From an uncultured Allomuricauda sp. (GTDB taxonomy: Bacteria > Bacteroidota > Bacteroidia > Flavobacteriales > Flavobacteriaceae): a stretch of 64,000 nt of DNA. The stretch covers positions 1,789,807 to 1,853,806 of the forward strand of contig OZ220751.1 of NCBI GenBank assembly GCA_965117065.1. The letters run 5' to 3'. Numbering within the stretch: the stretch's first letter is position 1; each line of letters starts with the position of its first letter. Positions 56,477-64,000 of this stretch are shown here, piece by piece. The notes beneath the pieces were generated by a model. It made no database searches and was not told where the DNA came from. It saw only the letters and a list, made by a program, of their open reading frames with translations. The position numbers and the translations under genes were made by a program.

Positions 56477-58642
56477 GTGAAAGTCTTCAAACATCCGGTT
56501 CTTCTAATTTTTATTGTTTTCCTTTCATGCAATAAATCAAATACCGAATCATCCTCGGAAAATTATCATACAACTTGGCAGCATTATTTAGGTGACCCAG
56601 AAAGAACCCATTACTCCACACTTGATCAAATTGACAGTTCTAATGTGAAAAACCTTAAGGTTGCTTGGGTCTATAAAAGTGGGGGTTTAGAGGAAGGCAG
56701 GACCACACAGATTCAGACAAATCCTTTAATCATTGACACTGTCCTGTATGGGGTAAATGCGGCTATCGAACTCTTTGCCCTGAGTGCGAAAACAGGTGAG
56801 GAAATTTGGAAGTTTAATCCAACTTCCAAAGACAATTCTGGACTTGGTCTAAATCGTGGTTTAAGTTTCTGGAAATCCAATTCAGAGGAGAAAAGCCGGC
56901 TTTTCTTCTCTTCAGGGTCAAAACTCTACGCGGTAAATGTGGAGAATGGAAAAGTAATTTCATCCTTTGGCGAAAAAGGACATGTGGATTTAAGGGATGG
57001 TCTTGGAAGAAATCCTGAAAAATTATCAGTTGTGGCCAATACTCCCGGAGCTATATATAAGAACCTATTGATTATGGGGACTCGAGTTGGTGAAGGCCCA
57101 GGTTCTTCCCCTGGTCATATAAGAGCTTATAACGTTTTAACAGGTGCAATTGAATGGATTTTTCACACCATCCCGCAGCCCAATGAATTTGGGTACGACA
57201 CTTGGCCCAAAGAAGCCTACCAAACTGTTGGCGGCGCAAATAGCTGGGCTGGAATTGCAATGGATAAAGAAAGGGGTATCGTGTATATTCCGACCGGATC
57301 TGCCGCTTTTGATTGGTATGGCGGTGACCGTACGGGAGAGAATTTATTTGCCAATTCCTTGTTGGCCTTGGATGCCAAGACTGGAAATCGCATATGGCAT
57401 TTTCAAATGGTCCATCATGATATATGGGACAGGGACTTACCTGCACCCCCAAATCTTTTCGATTTTAATCAGAATGGACAAAAAATTCCGGCGGTGGCCC
57501 AAGTAACCAAAAGCGGACATATTTTTATTTTCAATCGACTTACGGGAGAACCTATTTTTCCTATTGAAGAAAGAACATATCCGGTTTCAAAACTTAAGGG
57601 AGAGCACGCCAACACCACTCAGCCGCTTCCCACAAAGCCCGCCCCTTTTGCCCGTCAAATATTGAGAAAGGAAGATTTGTATGATCCCTCCCGACCAGCA
57701 TTTGTAGATGATTTTGTGGATAAGAATCAAAATATAGATCCTCCGACGGTGCTGCAAAAGTTTGAACAAATAACTTCGGAAGGGCAGTTTGTCCCTATTG
57801 ATACGACTGGAGTTATTCTTTATCCCGGTGCAGATGGGGGTGCGGAATGGGGTGGTGCCGCCTTAGACCCAAACAATGGGATAATGTATGTGAATTCCAA
57901 TGAAATGGCATGGATTGTACGAATGACCAATGTCAAAGCGAAAGATGGACAAAATGCAAATCGAAGTGCTTTGGCCACCAAAATCCATTGTGCCAGATGC
58001 CATGGTGGAGACTTACAAGGGCTAGGGGCTATCCCAAATTTGCAACATCTTGAAGATAAATTTTCGGTTGATTCCATATTCAGTATTATTAAAAATGGCA
58101 AGGGCGCCATGCCAGGAATGCCCAATCTCTCAGATCAAGAAATCAATGGAATTGCCAACTTTTTATCCGGAATAGAAGAAGAAATCGACCATAGAGCAGA
58201 ACAAACGGATTTGGACGTTCCCTATGCAGTTGGTGGTTTTGGTCGATTTAAAGACAATAGGGGCTATCCCGTAGTAAAACCTCCCTGGGGAACGTTAAAT
58301 GCTATTGACCTCAATACGGGCAATTATCTATGGAAAATTCCACTAGGGAATGAGGAGGAATTAAACGATCCCGATTATCCTATTTCTGGATTGGAGAATT
58401 ATGGCGGCCCTGTTATCACCGCAGGAGGACTATTGTTTATAGCCGCAACCAAAGATGAAAAAATTCGGGCGTTCAGTATGAAAACAGGCAAAATACTTTG
58501 GGAAGATGACCTGCCAGCAGGTGGCTACGCAACACCTGCCACCTATGAGATTGAAGGCAAGCAATTTTTGGTCATTGCCTGTGGTGGTGGGAAAATGGGT
58601 ACCCCATCTGGTGATGAATACAGAGCTTATGGCCTAGAATAA
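56477..58642 (+). CDS. PQQ-dependent quinoprotein dehydrogenase lipoprotein (glucose/aldose dehydrogenase-like propeller) with an internally inserted cytochrome c domain
   Basis: 721 aa with lipobox FLSC. PQQ-propeller W-motifs occur both before and after a CxxCH heme motif (CARCHGG...MPGMP) at about residue 500. Confidence 0.7.
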   Translation: MKVFKHPVLLIFIVFLSCNKSNTESSSENYHTTWQHYLGDPERTHYSTLDQIDSSNVKNLKVAWVYKSGGLEEGRTTQIQTNPLIIDTVLYGVNAAIELFALSAKTGEEIWKFNPTSKDNSGLGLNRGLSFWKSNSEEKSRLFFSSGSKLYAVNVENGKVISSFGEKGHVDLRDGLGRNPEKLSVVANTPGAIYKNLLIMGTRVGEGPGSSPGHIRAYNVLTGAIEWIFHTIPQPNEFGYDTWPKEAYQTVGGANSWAGIAMDKERGIVYIPTGSAAFDWYGGDRTGENLFANSLLALDAKTGNRIWHFQMVHHDIWDRDLPAPPNLFDFNQNGQKIPAVAQVTKSGHIFIFNRLTGEPIFPIEERTYPVSKLKGEHANTTQPLPTKPAPFARQILRKEDLYDPSRPAFVDDFVDKNQNIDPPTVLQKFEQITSEGQFVPIDTTGVILYPGADGGAEWGGAALDPNNGIMYVNSNEMAWIVRMTNVKAKDGQNANRSALATKIHCARCHGGDLQGLGAIPNLQHLEDKFSVDSIFSIIKNGKGAMPGMPNLSDQEINGIANFLSGIEEEIDHRAEQTDLDVPYAVGGFGRFKDNRGYPVVKPPWGTLNAIDLNTGNYLWKIPLGNEEELNDPDYPISGLENYGGPVITAGGLLFIAATKDEKIRAFSMKTGKILWEDDLPAGGYATPATYEIEGKQFLVIACGGGKMGTPSGDEYRAYGLE

Positions 58643-58647
58643 GATTG

Positions 58648-59691
58648 TTAGGGAGCAGGATTTGGAATGGTATTATGAATGTCCTCAATACCCTCCAAAA
58701 TCTCATCGGAAAGGTCCACATCGATGCTTTCAATATTTTCTTTTAGCTGTTCCATGGTAGTAGCCCCAATGATATTACTGGTCACAAAAGGTCTTGTATT
58801 TACAAAGGCAAGTGCCATCTGTGTTAAGCTTAAACCATGATCTTTAGCCAGTTGCTGGTACTGTTCCGTAGCTGCTGTTGCTGTTTCCCCACTGTACCTA
58901 TTGTAATTGGGAAAAAGGGTGACCCTTGCTTTTCGAGGTGGAATCTCCGTCAAATACTTCCCACTCAACACACCAAACCCTAGCGGAGAATACGCCAACA
59001 ACCCAATATTTTCACGCATAGAAACTTCCGAAAGGCCTACTTCAAAAAGTCGGTTTAGTAAATTATACGGGTTTTGAATGGTTAACATACGAGGCAGGCT
59101 TTGATGCACCTTGCTCTCCTCCAAAAAGCGCATGGCTCCCCAGGGACTCTCATTGGATAACCCCACATGTCTAATCTTTCCTTCCGAAACCAAATCCCGA
59201 AGTGTTTCCAAAACCTGATGAATGTTGTCTTCCCACGGGTCAACGGAATGGGCGTTAAACCCACGTTGCCCAAAATAGTTGGTATTCCTTTCCGGCCAGT
59301 GAAGTTGGTACAAATCAATATAATCTGTCTGTAAACGTTGAAGACTGTCTTCTACAGCTTTAACCAATGAATCTTTACTAAATCCCGTACTTCGAATATG
59401 CTTGGTAAAGTCAGCCCTACCTGCAATCTTAGTAGCCAGCACCACCTTGTCGCGATTTCCTGTTTTCTTGAACCAGCTACCAATGAACTCTTCAGTAACT
59501 GCATAAAGTTCCTTCTTTGCGGGAACGGGATATAGCTCTGCGGTATCAAAAAAATTAATCCCATGATCTAGGGCATAATCCATTTGTTCATGACCTTCAT
59601 CTTCGGTATTTTGTCTTCCCCAAGTCATGGTTCCCAAACAAATTTTACTTACTCTGATATTGGTATGCGGAAGTCTGGTATATTTCATCAA
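58648..59691 (-). CDS. NADP(H)-dependent aldo-keto reductase (Tas/YghZ-like)
   Basis: 347 aa with AKR catalytic tetrad context (DTAELY, K in LATK, HWPE). Confidence 0.85.
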   Translation of the reverse strand: MMKYTRLPHTNIRVSKICLGTMTWGRQNTEDEGHEQMDYALDHGINFFDTAELYPVPAKKELYAVTEEFIGSWFKKTGNRDKVVLATKIAGRADFTKHIRSTGFSKDSLVKAVEDSLQRLQTDYIDLYQLHWPERNTNYFGQRGFNAHSVDPWEDNIHQVLETLRDLVSEGKIRHVGLSNESPWGAMRFLEESKVHQSLPRMLTIQNPYNLLNRLFEVGLSEVSMRENIGLLAYSPLGFGVLSGKYLTEIPPRKARVTLFPNYNRYSGETATAATEQYQQLAKDHGLSLTQMALAFVNTRPFVTSNIIGATTMEQLKENIESIDVDLSDEILEGIEDIHNTIPNPAP

Positions 59692-59748
59692 GCTAATTTA
59701 TGAGAAAGCAAAAATAGGTAATCCTTAGTGCTGGATTTGTGGGTAGGG

Positions 59749-60513
59749 TTATTTTTCTACTTCAATAAGAATGGGACAATGATCGCTATGCTTTGCATCT
59801 GATAGAATCACGCACCGTTTTAACCTATCCTTTAATGATTCGTTCACCATGCCATAATCCAATCGCCACCCCTTATTATTGGCCCTGGCATTGGCCCGGT
59901 AGCTCCACCAAGTATAATTGTGTGGTTCTTTGTTGAAATGCCTAAAACTGTCAATAAACCCACTTTTCATAAAGTTGCCGATCCATTCCCGTTCTACCGG
60001 TAAAAATCCAGAGACATTCTTGTTGCGTACAGGATCATGGATGTCAATGGCTTCATGACAAATATTATAATCTCCGCATACAATAAGGTTAGGGCGTTCT
60101 TTTCGAAGTTGATCTGCATATTTTTGGAAATCTGCCATATACGTAAGCTTAAATTCCAAGCGATCCATGTTCGTGCCAGATGGAAGGTACATGCTCATCA
60201 CGGAAATGTCTCCGAAATCAGCCCGTATATTACGTCCCTCAAAATCCATATAGTCAATTCCGGTACCATATTCCACATGGTCTGGTTCTTCCTTACACAA
60301 CAAGGCAACACCGCTATATCCTTTTTTTTGGGCACTGAACCAATAATTATATTTATATCCAGCAGCCTCGAATAAGGAAACATCCACTTGTTCCTTCATG
60401 GCTTTGGTTTCCTGAAGGCAAATCACATCTGGTCCCACTGCTTGGAGCCAATCAACAAAGCCTTTGTTTAAAGCGGCTCTAATGCCATTCACGTTATAGG
60501 AAGCTATTTTCAT
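59749..60513 (-). CDS. xth: Exodeoxyribonuclease III
   Basis: 254 aa: MKIASYNVNGIRA...QETK...SDHCP, EEP-family AP endonuclease. Confidence 0.9.
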   Translation of the reverse strand: MKIASYNVNGIRAALNKGFVDWLQAVGPDVICLQETKAMKEQVDVSLFEAAGYKYNYWFSAQKKGYSGVALLCKEEPDHVEYGTGIDYMDFEGRNIRADFGDISVMSMYLPSGTNMDRLEFKLTYMADFQKYADQLRKERPNLIVCGDYNICHEAIDIHDPVRNKNVSGFLPVEREWIGNFMKSGFIDSFRHFNKEPHNYTWWSYRANARANNKGWRLDYGMVNESLKDRLKRCVILSDAKHSDHCPILIEVEK

Positions 60514-60583: not shown

Positions 60584-62542
60584 CTAATAGGACAAGCCAT
60601 GACCGAAAGGGTACAATGGATTTTCTGAGTCGTAGGGTACATCTTCCAATTGCTTTTCAACCGCCTCTTGGGAAGAGGGTAGCTCAAATGGTAATTTTGC
60701 CTTCGGATTTACCTCCCCAGAAAGGAGGCCTACCAATGCTTCGTCGCTGGTGCCAAAATCAACGAGCAAAGCATTGGCCTCCGCACTGACCTCTGTTAAT
60801 ATGGCTGGTCGTTCAAGAGTAGCTATTACTATTGAAGGTTTTTCGTTGATCAAATCCAGAATTTCTTTTTTCTCCTCATCAGAATAATACAACCTCCCTT
60901 GGTGAAAAAAGGATTCCAGAAAATAGTCTGTGCGCTCATCAAATGGGGTTTTAATTCTGGCAATTACCACATCGGCCTTATTTGGGTTGCTGACCAATTC
61001 GCCCAGGCTTTCATATGCCGATTTATCCTCAGCTCCATGAACATATAGTTTCACCGTTTTCTTTAATGGCAATAAATCTTCATTTTTAAGTAAAACCGTT
61101 GACTTTTGTTGAGCCAATAATCCCTTTTTTCTAAAATCCATATTTCCTGTGATCACAGTAGCAGCTTCTACATCCACATACGGATTGTCAAATAGACCCA
61201 ACTTAAACTTATCGCGCAGAACGCGCCTTACCGAATTATCGATGCGCTCCTCGGATAGTTGCCCTTCGCTGACCAATTCGGTAATTACCTCAGGGATACT
61301 CTCACCTCCAAACTGATCACATCCAGCATCCAACACTTTTTTCACCCTTTGTTTAATAGTCAAATGTTCAACTCCCCAGGCGCGACCCTCACCCATTTTG
61401 GTGTCGGTAATTATATTCCAATCTGTACAGACCACCCCTTTAAAATTCAAAGAGTCCCTTAGCAATCCCGTAATAATATCCTTATTGAACCCAAAGGCTA
61501 CATCCTCGCTGGTCTGGCCAACTGGAATTCCGTAATAAGGCATTATTTGGGCTGTGTTCGCCTCAAAAGCCCCTTTAATGAATGGTTTTACATGGTAATC
61601 AAAGTTATTACCAGGGTAAGCCTGATCTTTTCCATAAGGAAAATGGGGGTCCTCCCCATCTTTTTGCGGGCCGCCTCCAGAAAAATGCTTAGTCATGCAA
61701 GCAATGCTGTTTGTGCTTAACGAATCTCCTTGAAAACCTAAAACATAGGCCTTGGTCATAATGGCAGAAAGGTCTGCATCTTCGCCAAAAGTACCGTTGG
61801 TTCTTCCCCATCTGGGTTCCGTAGCTAAATCTGCCATTGGATGTAACGCCAACCTGATTCCTACAGCTAGATATTCTTGTCTGGCGATGTCAGCAAACTC
61901 CCTAACCATAAGGGTATCCCTTGAAGCCGCTAACCCCAAGGAACTGGGCCATTGTGAAAAGGCTGGGGTAAACAACGAGGCTCCTGGGTTATTGGAAGTT
62001 CCGTGTCTGGGATCGGTAGCAATTGTAATTGGAATGCCCAATCGGGTACGTTCCGCCATTTTTTGGACACTATTGTTATATTTTGCCATCAAATCAGCAT
62101 CCAAAGAAGCTAAAATATTGAAACTGTTCATCTTCTTTTTGGCAATGAGCTCCGAATTGGATGGGAGCACAAAGGACATCATCACATTAATTGGATTTGT
62201 GGACAACAGTGGAGTCTCCATTGGTTCTCCTTTGGGGGTTGTCCCTATCATAGTTACAAACAAGGTTCCTGTCTTTTCCTCCAAAGTCATCTGATCCAGT
62301 AAATCGTTTACACGATCTTCAATGGGGGCATTTTTGTTTTCATAAACATCCAAATGGCCATTTTTGTTTAAATCTCTATAGGTAATTCCCTGTTCAACCA
62401 AAGTTGGAGCTTCCACACCCAGCAGGGCCATGTTGTCATTCGACTTTTTCTTCTTGGTAAAATAGAGTACCGCCCAACCTACTATCAACAAAGTGATTAG
62501 TGTTAGCAGTACGTACTTTAAAATTTTAAGGAATTTTTTCAT
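60584..62542 (-). CDS. Glycoside hydrolase family 3 protein (beta-glucosidase / beta-xylosidase-like) with N-terminal membrane anchor
   Basis: 652 aa with N-terminal TM, GH3 N-domain (KHF.G motifs) and C-domain. It ends ...FGHGLSY. Confidence 0.85.
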   Translation of the reverse strand: MKKFLKILKYVLLTLITLLIVGWAVLYFTKKKKSNDNMALLGVEAPTLVEQGITYRDLNKNGHLDVYENKNAPIEDRVNDLLDQMTLEEKTGTLFVTMIGTTPKGEPMETPLLSTNPINVMMSFVLPSNSELIAKKKMNSFNILASLDADLMAKYNNSVQKMAERTRLGIPITIATDPRHGTSNNPGASLFTPAFSQWPSSLGLAASRDTLMVREFADIARQEYLAVGIRLALHPMADLATEPRWGRTNGTFGEDADLSAIMTKAYVLGFQGDSLSTNSIACMTKHFSGGGPQKDGEDPHFPYGKDQAYPGNNFDYHVKPFIKGAFEANTAQIMPYYGIPVGQTSEDVAFGFNKDIITGLLRDSLNFKGVVCTDWNIITDTKMGEGRAWGVEHLTIKQRVKKVLDAGCDQFGGESIPEVITELVSEGQLSEERIDNSVRRVLRDKFKLGLFDNPYVDVEAATVITGNMDFRKKGLLAQQKSTVLLKNEDLLPLKKTVKLYVHGAEDKSAYESLGELVSNPNKADVVIARIKTPFDERTDYFLESFFHQGRLYYSDEEKKEILDLINEKPSIVIATLERPAILTEVSAEANALLVDFGTSDEALVGLLSGEVNPKAKLPFELPSSQEAVEKQLEDVPYDSENPLYPFGHGLSY

Positions 62543-62558
62543 CTTATTATATCATTTC

Positions 62559-62605
62559 GACACAATAATACGAAATTATTTTTAATGTGTCCTATTGACA
62601 CAATA
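62559..62605. promoter_or_regulatory. Candidate operator: GACACAATA half-site (62559-62567) plus palindrome TGTGTC-N5-GACACA (62586-62602) in the GH3 / NrtR-like regulator divergent intergenic region
   Basis: Read directly from the sequence: tcGACACAATAatacgaaattatttttaaTGTGTCctattGACACAATAgaa. Confidence 0.45.
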
Positions 62606-62628
62606 GAATTTTTGTATTTTTACAAATA

Positions 62629-63423
62629 ATGACAGATATAGCTTTGCAGATTAAGTCCTTAAAGGACCTTATTCCCAAATATCTTCCCGGCCAGTCTGTG
62701 GATTGCGTCATCTTTGGATATGAGGAAAAGCAACTCAAGGTCCTTTTGTTAAAATGGAAGCAAACGGGTTTTTGGGCGCTTCCCGGCGGATTCATTTTTA
62801 AGGAAGAAAACATGGATGATGCTGCCCAAAGAGTTTTGGAAGAACGTACCAGCCTCACTTCCATTTTTCTAAAACAGTTCCACACTTTTGGAAAACTCCA
62901 ACGGTCAGACCGAAGTCAGCAGGAACATCATAATAAAGTGATGGAACTGCTTAAATCCGAAACCAAGGACAGTCATATGGTCGTTGACTGGTTTAACAAT
63001 CGCTTTGTTACCACGGGATATTTTGCACTGACAGATTTAAGCAAAGCCACTCCCAGACCTGATTTTTTGAGCGAAAAGTGCGAATGGAAAAATGTATCGG
63101 AACTTCCCAAATTAATAATTGATCATGCAGAAATTATTGAAAAAGCCATGCATCAACTTAAGATCCAGTTAAATTACCTTCCCCTCGGTATTTCATTGCT
63201 GCCAAAAAAATTTACCATGAACGAGCTGCAAAAATTGTACGAAGCTATTTTGGGAAGACCGCTGGAACGTAGCAACTTTCAACGGAAAATTTTGAAACTC
63301 GATGTGTTGGTTCGACAAGAAAAATTGATGTCCGGTGCTGCTAACAAGGCTCCGTACCTGTATTCGTTTGACCCGGTCAAATACAATAAGTTGCTAAAAG
63401 AAGGTATTGGCTTTAGATATTAA
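62629..63423 (+). CDS. NrtR-family transcriptional regulator (degenerate Nudix domain + C-terminal winged helix)
   Basis: 264 aa with Nudix-box remnant GGFIFKEENMDDAAQRVLEERTSL and a C-terminal NrtR-type wHTH (...ERSNFQRKILKL...). Divergent from the GH3 gene. Confidence 0.6.
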   Translation: MTDIALQIKSLKDLIPKYLPGQSVDCVIFGYEEKQLKVLLLKWKQTGFWALPGGFIFKEENMDDAAQRVLEERTSLTSIFLKQFHTFGKLQRSDRSQQEHHNKVMELLKSETKDSHMVVDWFNNRFVTTGYFALTDLSKATPRPDFLSEKCEWKNVSELPKLIIDHAEIIEKAMHQLKIQLNYLPLGISLLPKKFTMNELQKLYEAILGRPLERSNFQRKILKLDVLVRQEKLMSGAANKAPYLYSFDPVKYNKLLKEGIGFRY

Positions 63424-63486: not shown

Positions 63487-64000
63487 ATGAAAAAGCTACT
63501 GTTTTTAGGCATCTTTCTTTCAGGTTATTTAGCCATGGCCCAAGCCTATCCCAGGTACAATAACAACCATGAATTAAAGTTCAATGCCGGACTTTTCCTA
63601 GCTACAGGATCGGTGGAAGGGTCTTATGAATATTACTTTACCGAAGACACAAGCTTTGGAGGAACTGTTTACTTTAATAATGACGCTACGGACTACAATG
63701 GAAATTTTGGCATTGGCCCCAATCTAAGAGCCTATTTTGGCTACCAACCCAGAACTGGTCTCTTTGTAGAAGCTTTTGGCCTATATTACACCTGGGAAGA
63801 AGAAGATTTGCAGGATACCATAAACTTTAGGAACAATGATTATAGCACCGTGGCTCTTGGTCTAGGCTTAGGTAATAAATGGGTTACTCCTAGCGATAAC
63901 TTTACCTTGGAAATCTATGGCGGTGTCGGTCGAAATGTAAACCCAGAAGATTTCCAGGACACCTTTATGTTCCGTGGGGCACTGTCTATTGGTTTTCGAT
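63487..64000 (+). CDS. Outer-membrane beta-barrel-like protein, partial (runs off the right edge of the window)
   Basis: ATG 63487: MKKLLFLGIFLSGYLAMAQA signal peptide, then Gly/Tyr/Phe-rich alternating beta-strand pattern. No stop within the window. Confidence 0.45.
   Translation, partial: MKKLLFLGIFLSGYLAMAQAYPRYNNNHELKFNAGLFLATGSVEGSYEYYFTEDTSFGGTVYFNNDATDYNGNFGIGPNLRAYFGYQPRTGLFVEAFGLYYTWEEEDLQDTINFRNNDYSTVALGLGLGNKWVTPSDNFTLEIYGGVGRNVNPEDFQDTFMFRGALSIGFR

What the first reader, a model, noticed from the sequence alone, without database searches (positions are those of the whole stretch)
60584..63423. NrtR-like Nudix/wHTH regulator divergent from a GH3 glycosidase, with GACACA palindromic operator candidates
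The 264-aa protein has a degenerate Nudix box plus a C-terminal NrtR-type winged helix. In Bacteroidetes this family includes sugar-utilization regulators such as AraR. The 86-bp divergent spacer contains GACACAATA twice in direct orientation and a TGTGTC-N5-GACACA palindrome. This is a plausible sugar-derived effector-sensing switch for the membrane-anchored GH3 enzyme.
Basis: partly seen in the sequence, partly recalled or inferred. Interest (0 to 1): 0.5.

Follow-up and report, generated by a model that had tools for sequence, protein, structure and literature searches.

The report
Sugar-sensing repressor switch for a glycosidase
A marine flavobacterium carries a small self-contained switch: a Nudix-type DNA-binding protein that most likely represses itself and the neighbouring membrane-anchored sugar-cleaving enzyme through two conserved DNA sites. 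It is a well-supported new member of a known regulator family, not a new kind of system.

Summary
The 264-aa protein (62629-63423, +) has a degenerate Nudix domain and an NrtR/AraR winged helix. The divergent 652-aa gene (60584-62542, -) is a GH3 glycosidase with an N-terminal signal anchor. The 86-bp spacer holds the reported repeats.

The real operator is larger than reported. It is two 23-bp semipalindromes, consensus TAWTGTGTY-N5-RACACAWTA, at 62545-62567 and 62583-62605. Their GTGT-N7-ACAC core matches the proven operator of Bacteroides AraR.

The GH3/regulator divergon and both sites recur in about 45 genomes of Flavobacteriaceae, Saprospiraceae and Cytophagia. In 40 loci not used to build the matrix, 34 matrix hits fall just upstream of the regulator gene (0.03 expected), against 1 hit in 471 kb elsewhere.

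The protein is not an AraR orthologue. Arabinose-binding Arg34 is Trp, DNA-intercalating Arg180 is Ser, and a two-helix insertion is present.

Most likely it is a local sugar-released repressor of its own gene and of the GH3. The effector is unknown; glucose and GlcNAc are candidates. In some genomes the regulated unit is a GH20-GH3 operon.

Verdict: new member of a known kind, moderate interest.

The parts
62629..63423 (+). Regulator gene (264 aa). It has an N-terminal catalytically degenerate Nudix domain carrying a two-helix insertion (residues about 94-123), and a C-terminal NrtR/AraR-type winged helix.
   Evidence: Pfam NUDIX, NrtR_WHD and AraR_C. The closest solved structure by sequence is BtAraR 5BS6, E 3.8e-41. 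The AF2 model has pLDDT 86.3, and its top fold hits are BtAraR (TM 0.83 on the target) and then Shewanella NrtR.
60584..62542 (-). GH3 exo-glycosidase (652 aa). It has an N-terminal signal anchor (residues about 11-29) and an extracytoplasmic catalytic domain. The nucleophile is D374 and the Asp-His dyad motif is KHFSGGGPQKDGEDPH (K285, H286, D298, H300).
   Evidence: Pfam PF00933 and PF01915. The best PDB matches are 9UL7, a Clavibacter beta-glucosidase (E 2e-169), and SN243, a beta-glucuronidase (E 2e-96). The dyad motif definition comes from the SN243 preprint. The signal anchor is conserved in orthologues, and distant orthologues carry lipoprotein signals instead.
62545..62567 (.). Operator site 1, TATTATATCATTTCGACACAATA. 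It is the GH3-proximal semipalindrome, and its outer half ends 2 nt from the GH3 ATG.
   Evidence: 24.7 bits. It is conserved by position in orthologous spacers. In most spacers it lies 0-9 nt from the GH3 start.
62583..62605 (.). Operator site 2, TAATGTGTCCTATTGACACAATA. It is the regulator-proximal semipalindrome and contains the perfect TGTGTC-N5-GACACA.
   Evidence: 28.7 bits, the best hit in the window. It is the only GTGT-N7-ACAC in 64 kb. It shares its core with the BtAraR operators tested by EMSA and crystallography (PMC4666351).
62615..62622 (+). Inferred Bacteroidetes -7 promoter box of the regulator gene. It reads TATTTTTA here, and TATTTTTG (that is, TAnnTTTG) in the nearest relatives. 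It sits 9 nt after site 2 and 6 nt before the ATG.
   Evidence: An exact TAnnTTTG occupies the same place (5-9 nt after site 2, 3-6 nt before the ATG) in about 20 of 38 distinct spacers. The function is inferred, not shown.
62563..62570 (-). Weak candidate -7 box of the GH3 promoter. It reads TATTATTG on the minus strand and overlaps the inner half of site 1.
   Evidence: The flank GACACAATAnTA is conserved. An exact TAnnTTTG occupies this position in L009, L010 and L013. This is inference only.

Best explanation
This is a self-contained divergon controlled by a sugar-responsive repressor of the AraR/XylR branch of the NrtR family.

Proposed mechanism (inferred): without effector, dimers of the 264-aa protein occupy two 23-bp semipalindromic operators in the 86-bp spacer. 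Site 2 covers the -33 region, just upstream of the -7 box of the regulator's own near-leaderless promoter. This gives autorepression. Site 1 covers the promoter-proximal and leader region that abuts the GH3 start codon. This represses the GH3.

The GH3 is a signal-anchored, extracytoplasmic exo-glycosidase of the Asp-His-dyad subgroup. A monosaccharide released by it is taken up and binds the catalytically dead Nudix domain. Glucose or GlcNAc are the best guesses. Binding releases the repressor from DNA, as L-arabinose does for Bacteroides AraR.

Shown here: domain architecture and fold, operator anatomy, conservation and specificity of the operator, conserved gene pairing, and export signals. 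Inferred: repression rather than activation, promoter positions, release by an effector, and the identity of the effector.
For: Architecture and fold:
- Domain hits.
- BtAraR is the best sequence match and the best structural match.
- The Nudix box lacks two catalytic glutamates.

Operator:
- Two 23-bp sites lie 38 bp apart.
- They are the only strong matrix hits in the 64 kb window.
- Their GTGT-N7-ACAC core is identical to the BtAraR sites bound in EMSA and in the crystal. AraR also uses tandem semipalindromic sites.

Gene linkage:
- GH3 and the regulator are divergent neighbours in about 45 of 80 loci, across several families of Bacteroidota.
- Both sites are conserved there.

Specificity of the operator:
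- In 919 kb of loci, every hit of at least 14 bits except one lies just upstream of the regulator gene.
- In loci not used for training there are 34 hits against 0.03 expected.
- The half-site variant tracks the regulator clade. GACAC goes with E/D213, and GATAC with V/L/R213.

Promoter geometry: an exact -7 box lies 5-9 nt after site 2 in about 20 of 38 spacers.

Ligand site:
- Arg86 and His131 of AraR are kept as R92 and H166.
- The specificity residue Arg34 is an invariant Trp43 in the GH3-linked clade, and differs in clades linked to other sugar enzymes.

Loss pattern: where GH3 is absent, the operator or the regulator looks degraded in L032 and L036.
Against: No experiment exists for this subfamily. 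Repression, promoters and effector are all inferred.

- Several AraR DNA contacts are not conserved (Arg180 to Ser215, Lys204 to Asn239). Operator assignment therefore rests on co-occurrence and on the shared core, not on conserved contacts.
- The GH3-side promoter has no good TAnnTTTG box in most spacers.
- The two sites are 37-40 bp apart, about 3.5-3.8 helical turns. They are not in phase, so cooperative binding cannot be assumed.
- The genome-wide regulon could not be scanned. Only 64 kb of this genome was available.
- GH3 specificity is uncertain. The nearest structures are labelled beta-glucosidase and beta-glucuronidase, while the catalytic dyad is NagZ-like.
Confidence: 0.75

Rival explanations
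1. It is a classical NrtR: an ADP-ribose-responsive regulator tied to NAD metabolism. On this view the GH3 adjacency reflects something other than sugar sensing.
For: The family Pfam domain NrtR_WHD is the strongest hit. The best NCBIfam hit is the ADPR-responsive repressor model. R92 and H166 are residues also used by Shewanella NrtR to hold the ribose.
Against: - The NCBIfam NrtR equivalog scores 110 bits against a cut-off of 400.
- AraR is much closer than Shewanella NrtR (E 4e-41 against 8e-19).
- No NAD gene lies in the 64 kb window near the locus or next to any of the 80 homologues examined.
- The phosphate-contacting Arg (Arg41 in SoNrtR, Arg34 in AraR) is Trp here.
- All partner genes found across the clade are sugar enzymes.
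Confidence: 0.08
2. The conserved palindromes are bound by a different factor, such as a Crp-like or global regulator, or are promoter elements. The TTGACA in each right half resembles a -35 box. On this view the Nudix protein is not their ligand.
For: The right halves (TTGACACAATA) are much better conserved than the left halves. They embed TTTG, the Bacteroidetes -33 motif. Key AraR DNA contacts are changed.
Against: - The motif is found almost only next to genes of this regulator family in 919 kb. A global regulator's sites or a generic promoter element would occur elsewhere too.
- The core equals the proven AraR operator.
- The motif variant co-varies with the regulator clade.
- A consensus sigma-70 scan finds nothing above shuffles.
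Confidence: 0.07
3. The protein is an activator, or a dual regulator, that recruits RNA polymerase to the GH3 promoter when the sugar is bound.
For: The effect of binding has not been measured. The GH3 promoter lacks a good -7 box, which is typical of activator-dependent promoters. Site 2 would lie around -35 to -60 of a GH3 promoter.
Against: - Site 1 abuts the GH3 ATG, and site 2 abuts the -7 box of the regulator gene. These are repressor-type positions.
- Both characterised relatives, AraR and NrtR, are repressors released by their ligand (PMC4666351, PMC2330246).
Confidence: 0.1

Closest known systems
Bacteroides thetaiotaomicron AraR (BT0354; PDB 5BS6, 5DD4, 5DDG, 5DEQ), the L-arabinose-responsive NrtR-family repressor
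   Same: - Same two-domain architecture and fold: 31-32% identity, TM 0.80-0.83 on the target.
- Dead Nudix box.
- Operator with a GTGT-N7-ACAC core.
- Two tandem semipalindromic sites.
- Sugar-holding Arg86 and His131 are conserved as R92 and H166.
- Controls glycoside hydrolase genes.
   Different: - Arg34 (arabinose O4 contact) is Trp43, and the beta2-beta3 loop is 3 residues shorter.
- Intercalating Arg180 is Ser215. Wing residues Lys204/Arg205 are Asn239/Lys240.
- A 24-32-aa two-helix insertion follows R92.
- Operator flanks are TATT/TAAT instead of AAA.
- The target is a single GH3 (sometimes GH20-GH3), not ara catabolic genes and PULs.
- No distant regulon members were seen.
Bacteroides XylR (BT0791) and the flavobacterial NrtR-type xylose and arabinose regulators predicted by Rodionov et al. 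2008
   Same: Same Bacteroidetes-specific sugar branch of the NrtR family. The arrangement with the regulated sugar genes is divergent, and sites lie in the spacer.
   Different: No xylAB or ara genes lie next to this regulator or next to any of the 80 homologues. No XylR sequence was available for a direct comparison.
Shewanella oneidensis NrtR (PDB 3GZ5, 3GZ6), the ADP-ribose-responsive repressor of NAD genes
   Same: Same fold, and a palindromic 21-23-bp operator with a GT-N7-AC core. Ligand binding in the Nudix domain releases DNA.
   Different: Only 25-26% identity. There is no NAD gene context here. The nucleotide-contacting Arg is replaced. The NCBIfam NrtR equivalog cut-off is missed by a wide margin.
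GH3 Asp-His-dyad enzymes: SN243 beta-glucuronidase (7QE1), Clavibacter beta-glucosidase (9UL7) and NagZ
   Same: The window GH3 carries the motif KHF-S-GGG-X6-DPH and the nucleophile Asp in TDW. It aligns over nearly its whole length with 9UL7.
   Different: It has an N-terminal signal anchor. It lacks an equivalent of SN243 Arg136, which reads the glucuronate carboxylate. It is much longer than cytoplasmic NagZ. Its substrate is untested.

Membership tests
NrtR family (Nudix-related transcriptional regulators) | N-terminal Nudix domain fused to a C-terminal NrtR-type winged helix | tested here: met
   PF00293 1.2e-7 and PF21906 4.4e-20, both above their gathering scores. The fold matches NrtR and AraR.
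NrtR family (Nudix-related transcriptional regulators) | Impaired Nudix signature GX5EX7REUXEEXGU (a non-catalytic ligand sensor) | tested here: met
   R68-V69-L70-E71-E72-R73: the first and third glutamates are replaced. R73 is nearly invariant in the clade.
NrtR family (Nudix-related transcriptional regulators) | Palindromic operator of about 21 bp with a GT-N7-AC core near the regulated genes | tested here: met
   Two 23-bp sites with a GTGT-N7-ACAC (or ATAT-N7-ACAC) core. They are conserved and specific.
NrtR family (Nudix-related transcriptional regulators) | ADP-ribose effector and control of NAD metabolism (NrtR in the strict sense; NCBIfam NF050029) | tested here: not met
   NF050029 scores 110 bits against a cut-off of 400. 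No NAD genes are in the context. Effector binding itself cannot be tested with these tools.
AraR (Bacteroides L-arabinose repressor) orthologue | Arabinose-binding triad Arg34/Arg86/His131, fully conserved in AraR orthologues | tested here: not met
   Arg34 aligns with Trp43. Arg86 and His131 are kept as R92 and H166.
AraR (Bacteroides L-arabinose repressor) orthologue | DNA-contacting residues Lys179, Arg180, Asn181, Lys184, Lys204 and Arg205, absolutely conserved in AraR orthologues | tested here: not met
   The aligned residues are R214, S215, N216, R219, N239 and K240. Only Asn181 is identical and three are conservative changes. The intercalating Arg180 is lost.
AraR (Bacteroides L-arabinose repressor) orthologue | Clustering with araMPRDAB and arabinan-degrading genes | tested here: not met
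   The neighbours are GH3, xth, an aldo-keto reductase and a small outer-membrane-like protein.
XylR (BT0791-type) orthologue | Clustering with xylA, xylB and a xylose transporter | tested here: not met
   No xyl genes were found in the window or next to the homologues that were examined. Sequence identity to BT0791 was not tested because no sequence was available.
Glycoside hydrolase family 3, Asp-His-dyad (NagZ/SN243-like) subgroup | GH3 N- and C-terminal domains, a nucleophile Asp, and the motif KH(F/I)PG(H/L/G)G-X6-D(S/T/P)H | tested here: met
   PF00933 3.5e-39 and PF01915 2.9e-16. D374 aligns with SN243 Asp415. KHFSGGGPQKDGEDPH aligns with KHFPGGGPQELGLDPH, with Ser in place of Pro.
Glycoside hydrolase family 3, Asp-His-dyad (NagZ/SN243-like) subgroup | Defined substrate (beta-glucuronide, beta-GlcNAc or beta-glucoside) | not testable with these tools
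   No NCBIfam equivalog cut-off is reached. SN243 Arg136 is not conserved. 9UL7 is labelled beta-glucosidase by its depositors. Co-transcription with GH20 in L004 and L016 hints at GlcNAc-containing substrates.

The most novel reading that the evidence does not exclude
The module may be one representative of a large, uncharted radiation of Nudix-domain sugar sensors in Bacteroidota. About 7,400 relatives had E <= 1e-10. On this reading, each sensor is wired through a variant of the same operator to a single exported sugar enzyme lying outside PULs. The partners seen were GH3, GH20, GH3+Fn3, PQQ/GSDH-ThuA dehydrogenases, GMC oxidoreductases with SusC, and GH63-like genes. This particular member, with its invariant Trp43 and helical insertion, would sense a hexose or N-acetylhexosamine released by inner-membrane-anchored GH3 and GH20 enzymes. 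It would then be a periplasmic salvage circuit for chito-oligosaccharides or cell-wall-derived sugars, rather than a polysaccharide-foraging one.
Probability: 0.25. Interest if true: 0.5.

Novelty: new member of a known kind. Interest (0 to 1): 0.35.

Why it matters
Sugar regulation in marine Bacteroidota is mostly discussed in terms of PUL-linked hybrid two-component systems, SusR-type and GntR-type regulators. Nudix-type sugar sensors have been characterised for only one case, Bacteroides AraR.

This locus gives a clean and widely conserved second example, with a different pocket residue, a different target enzyme class and a sharply defined operator. That makes effector identification, and rules for Nudix-domain sugar specificity, directly testable.

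It also gives a compact repressor/operator pair that could serve as a genetic part in Flavobacteriia. Finally, it flags a GH3 Asp-His-dyad subfamily whose substrate is still unknown.

Tried and rejected
1. Metagenome scan for the perfect palindrome TATTGTGT-N7-ACACAATA. None of the 120 contigs encodes the regulator or the GH3. It therefore says nothing about the regulon. Only L093 and L152 looked like genuine relatives of the operator.
2. A genome-wide regulon scan in the source genome was impossible.
3. The sigma-70 promoter and terminator scan gave nothing above shuffles, and it does not model Bacteroidetes promoters. It was replaced by a TAnnTTTG search.
4. Rfam found no RNA family in the window or in the repeat loci.
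5. Literature searches for this GH3-linked subfamily and for the 9UL7 enzyme found no description.
6. AraR orthology was considered and rejected on ligand residues, DNA-contact residues and gene context.
7. An active Nudix hydrolase was rejected on the degenerate Nudix box.
8. A beta-glucuronidase assignment for the GH3 was rejected as unsupported, because the SN243 carboxylate-binding Arg is absent.
Full report
**1. What is in the sequence**

The region holds two divergent genes separated by 86 bp (62543-62628).

The + strand ORF 62629-63423 encodes 264 aa. It hits NUDIX (PF00293, 1.2e-7), NrtR_WHD (PF21906, 4.4e-20) and AraR_C (PF19368, 1.5e-11). Its Nudix box reads G54-x5-E60-x7-R68-V-L-E-E72-R73. 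The first and third glutamates of REUxEE are therefore missing, and this holds throughout the clade.

The - strand ORF 60584-62542 encodes a 652-aa GH3 enzyme (PF00933 and PF01915). No NCBIfam equivalog cut-off is reached for either protein. The ADP-ribose repressor model NF050029 scores 110 bits against a cut-off of 400.

GACACAATA lies at 62559-62567 and 62597-62605, and TGTGTC-N5-GACACA lies at 62586-62602.

**2. The operator is larger and is real**

The repeat finder shows two 23-24-nt units 38 bp apart, each an imperfect palindrome:
- Site 1: TATTATATCATTTCGACACAATA, 62545-62567.
- Site 2: TAATGTGTCCTATTGACACAATA, 62583-62605.

The short motif alone is not significant. GTGT-N7-ACAC occurs once in 64 kb, and 33 of 100 shuffles give at least one match. 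I therefore tested conservation.

A scan of species-representative genomes with an alignment of homologues returned 80 loci. In about 45 of them an orthologous GH3 (49-90% identity) lies divergently upstream of the regulator. These loci come from Flagellimonas, Croceivirga, Muriicola, Maribacter, Ulvibacterium, Eudoraea, Tamlana, Lutibacter, Saprospiraceae, Cyclobacteriaceae and Reichenbachiella.

Nearly all of these spacers carry two sites at the same positions. Start-to-start spacing is 37-40 bp in 29 of 38 distinct spacers. Site 1 starts 0-9 nt from the GH3 ATG in most of them.

A matrix built from 78 sites gives the consensus TATTGTGTnAnnTTGACACAATA. It scores the two window sites at 24.7 and 28.7 bits, and the next best hit in the window scores 13.3. 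In 919 kb of loci, every hit of at least 14 bits except one lies just upstream of the regulator gene.

The test restricted to 40 loci not used for the matrix is free of circularity. It gives 34 hits in 8 kb of upstream windows against 0.03 expected, and 1 hit in 471 kb elsewhere.

**3. Who binds the operator**

The closest solved protein is Bacteroides thetaiotaomicron AraR, both by sequence (E 3.8e-41) and by fold. The AlphaFold model has pLDDT 86.3 and pTM 0.84. Foldseek places AraR first (TM 0.80-0.83 on the target, 31-32% identity), followed by Shewanella NrtR.

The AraR paper gives the oligonucleotides bound in EMSA and crystallised: AGTGTATTTGATACAC, AGTGTTACTTTTACAC and AGTGTAAAAAAGACAC. 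All share the core GTGT-N7-ACAC. The paper states that the contacts "define the GTGT motif" and that the ara operon carries two tandem semipalindromic sites (PMC4666351). The sites here have the same core and the same tandem architecture, with different flanks.

Related regulator clades (48-55% identity) carry a single site of the variant TATTGTATC-N5-GATACAATA in the same upstream position. The variant tracks residue 213, next to the recognition helix. E/D goes with GACAC, and V/L/R with GATAC. This co-variation is suggestive only.

Together these results make the Nudix protein by far the most likely ligand of the palindromes.

**4. It is not an AraR orthologue**

I mapped the published AraR residues through the alignment. 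PDB chain numbering is offset by 3.

| AraR residue | Role | Residue here |
|---|---|---|
| Arg34 | arabinose O4 contact | Trp43 (invariant Trp-Lys in the signal-anchored-GH3 clade) |
| Arg86 | sugar binding | R92 (kept) |
| His131 | sugar binding | H166 (kept) |
| Phe129 | pocket | variable Ile164 |

The loop between beta2 and beta3 is 3 residues shorter.

An insertion of 24-32 aa follows R92. It is predicted as two helices, 95-109 and 115-123, with lower confidence.

Of the six DNA contacts that are absolutely conserved in AraR orthologues, Asn181 is identical (N216). Lys179, Lys184 and Arg205 are conservatively replaced by R214, R219 and K240. The intercalating Arg180 is Ser215, and Lys204 is Asn239.

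No ara, xyl or NAD genes are nearby.

The residue at position 43 changes with the partner gene:

| Partner gene(s) | Example taxa or loci | Residue at position 43 |
|---|---|---|
| GSDH/ThuA/cytochrome c/CBM6 | Emticicia, Arcicella, Runella | Tyr, Phe, Leu or Met |
| SusC and GMC oxidoreductase | a Flagellimonas paralogue | Tyr |
| GH20 alone | L052, L062 | Phe or Ser, together with R92K and H166Q |

This is what a specificity determinant would look like, but it remains inference.

**5. The target enzyme**

The N-terminus, MKKFLKILKYVLLTLITLLIVGWAVLYFTKKKK, is a signal anchor. The same feature is conserved in all orthologues of at least 54% identity, with more positive charge on the N-side. 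The 49-52% orthologues carry lipoprotein signals instead. The catalytic domain is therefore extracytoplasmic.

The best PDB relatives are 9UL7 (labelled beta-glucosidase, from Clavibacter michiganensis; E 2e-169) and SN243 (E 2e-96). SN243 is the GH3 beta-glucuronidase that uses a NagZ-like Asp-His dyad within the motif KH(F/I)PG(H/L/G)G-X6-D(S/T/P)H (bioRxiv 10.1101/2022.04.25.489410).

The window enzyme has KHFSGGGPQKDGEDPH (K285, H286, D298, H300) and the nucleophile D374. It has no equivalent of SN243 Arg136, which reads the glucuronate carboxylate.

In L004 and L016 the operator-controlled unit is a GH20 (beta-hexosaminidase, also signal-anchored) followed directly by the GH3. In L022 a GH20 follows the regulator. 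In L052 and L062 a related regulator faces a GH20 alone.

The substrate may therefore be a beta-glucoside or a GlcNAc-containing oligosaccharide. It cannot be decided here.

The surroundings in the window are mostly housekeeping genes: radA-like, panC, glmS, a glycogen synthase-like gene and ATP synthase beta. A lone TonB-dependent receptor lies about 14 kb away. The locus is not part of a PUL.

**6. Mechanism**

An exact Bacteroidetes -7 box (TAnnTTTG) lies 5-9 nt after site 2, ending 3-6 nt before the regulator's ATG, in about 20 of 38 distinct spacers. In the window the box reads TATTTTTA at 62615-62622, and the nearest relatives have TATTTTTG.

Site 2 therefore covers roughly -14 to -36 of a near-leaderless promoter of the regulator gene. 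That is the position of an autorepressor.

Site 1 ends 2 nt from the GH3 ATG. Its inner half overlaps a weak -7-like box (TAnTATTG, which is an exact TAnnTTTG in L009, L010 and L013). It would therefore block initiation or early elongation of the GH3 transcript.

By analogy with AraR and NrtR, ligand binding to the Nudix domain should release the DNA. The spacing of 37-40 bp is not an integral number of helical turns, so I do not assume cooperativity.

Where the GH3 is missing, the picture fits a functional coupling:
- L024 keeps one site.
- L031 keeps weak sites.
- L032 and L036 have no sites. L032 also has a truncated ORF.

**7. Rivals**

A classical ADP-ribose NrtR, binding by another factor, and an activator role are all less likely. 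The evidence and the refuting experiments are listed in the structured fields.

**8. Novelty and score**

Nudix-type sugar regulators of Bacteroidetes have been predicted since 2008 and proven for AraR in 2015. Full-text searches found no description of a GH3- or GH20-linked subfamily. Database names for the homologues are generic, such as "NUDIX hydrolase".

This is a new, well-defined member of a known kind. It has a distinct pocket residue, an insertion, and a local regulon as far as could be scanned. A specialist would find it useful rather than surprising, so I score interest at 0.35.

**9. Limits**

There is no experimental evidence for this subfamily. Only 64 kb of the genome could be scanned. 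The metagenome motif scan was uninformative. XylR could not be compared directly. Promoter assignments rest on consensus matches and conservation.

Noticed in passing
L081-L200 (metagenome contigs Ga0209780, Ga0209363, Ga0049094, Ga0066187), e.g. L082:860-925: A repeated element of the form ...GCGGACCGCTTCGGGCGAATACTG-TATTGTGTTCATTCAACACAATA-CAGCCATCTAGTT... occurs on dozens of contigs in both orientations. It contains the perfect hairpin CTGTATTGTGTT/AACACAATACAG. It is unrelated to the regulator and has no Rfam match in six loci tested. It could be a mobile-element end or an undescribed structured RNA.
   Followed up: partly
L004:3505-5910(-), L016:3480-5972(-), L022:3665-3829(+), L052:3483-5891(-), L062: A signal-anchored GH20 beta-hexosaminidase is co-transcribed with the orthologous GH3 under the same two operators in L004 and L016. 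In L022 a GH20 follows the regulator. In L052 and L062 a GH20 is the sole divergent partner of a related regulator.
   Followed up: partly
L049, L064, L065, L075 (about 6 kb around the regulator); L093:2561 and L152:1083: Sister clades of the regulator sit next to PQQ/GSDH-ThuA-cytochrome c-CBM6 fusion proteins, TAT-signal xylose-isomerase-like TIM barrels, or SusC plus GMC oxidoreductase. They carry a single TATTGTATC-N5-GATACAATA site. The same operator type occurs between a GH63-like gene and the 309-aa TIM-barrel gene on two metagenome contigs that lack a nearby regulator. This hints at an oxidative (keto-sugar) glycoside pathway under Nudix-type control.
   Followed up: partly
window 56477-58642 (+): A 721-aa PQQ-dependent dehydrogenase beta-propeller has a c-type cytochrome domain inserted at residues about 500-565 (PF01011 3e-181, PF13442 4e-12). 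It lies 2 kb from the GH3 and next to an aldo-keto reductase at 58648-59691. No operator site lies upstream of it.
   Followed up: no
window 58648-60513 (-): The order aldo-keto reductase, exodeoxyribonuclease III, GH3, regulator is conserved in many Flavobacteriaceae (L001-L003, L006, L008-L010, L013, L015, L019, L021, L027). In L024 the GH3 alone is missing and the regulator keeps one operator site next to xth. The module therefore sits in a stable core-genome neighbourhood rather than an island.
   Followed up: partly
window 63487-64000 (+): This is a small signal-peptide protein rich in Gly, Tyr and Phe, which looks like an outer-membrane beta-barrel. It runs off the window end and is about 176 aa in L024. 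It follows the regulator only in close relatives (Flagellimonas, Muriicola, L015, L019, L021) and has no operator site.
   Followed up: partly
L032:6256-6768 and L036:3159-3986: In Cerina and Sediminicola, the regulator homologues without an adjacent GH3 have no operator hits and carry R68Q. The L032 ORF is truncated to 170 aa. This is consistent with decay of the switch after loss of its target.
   Followed up: no
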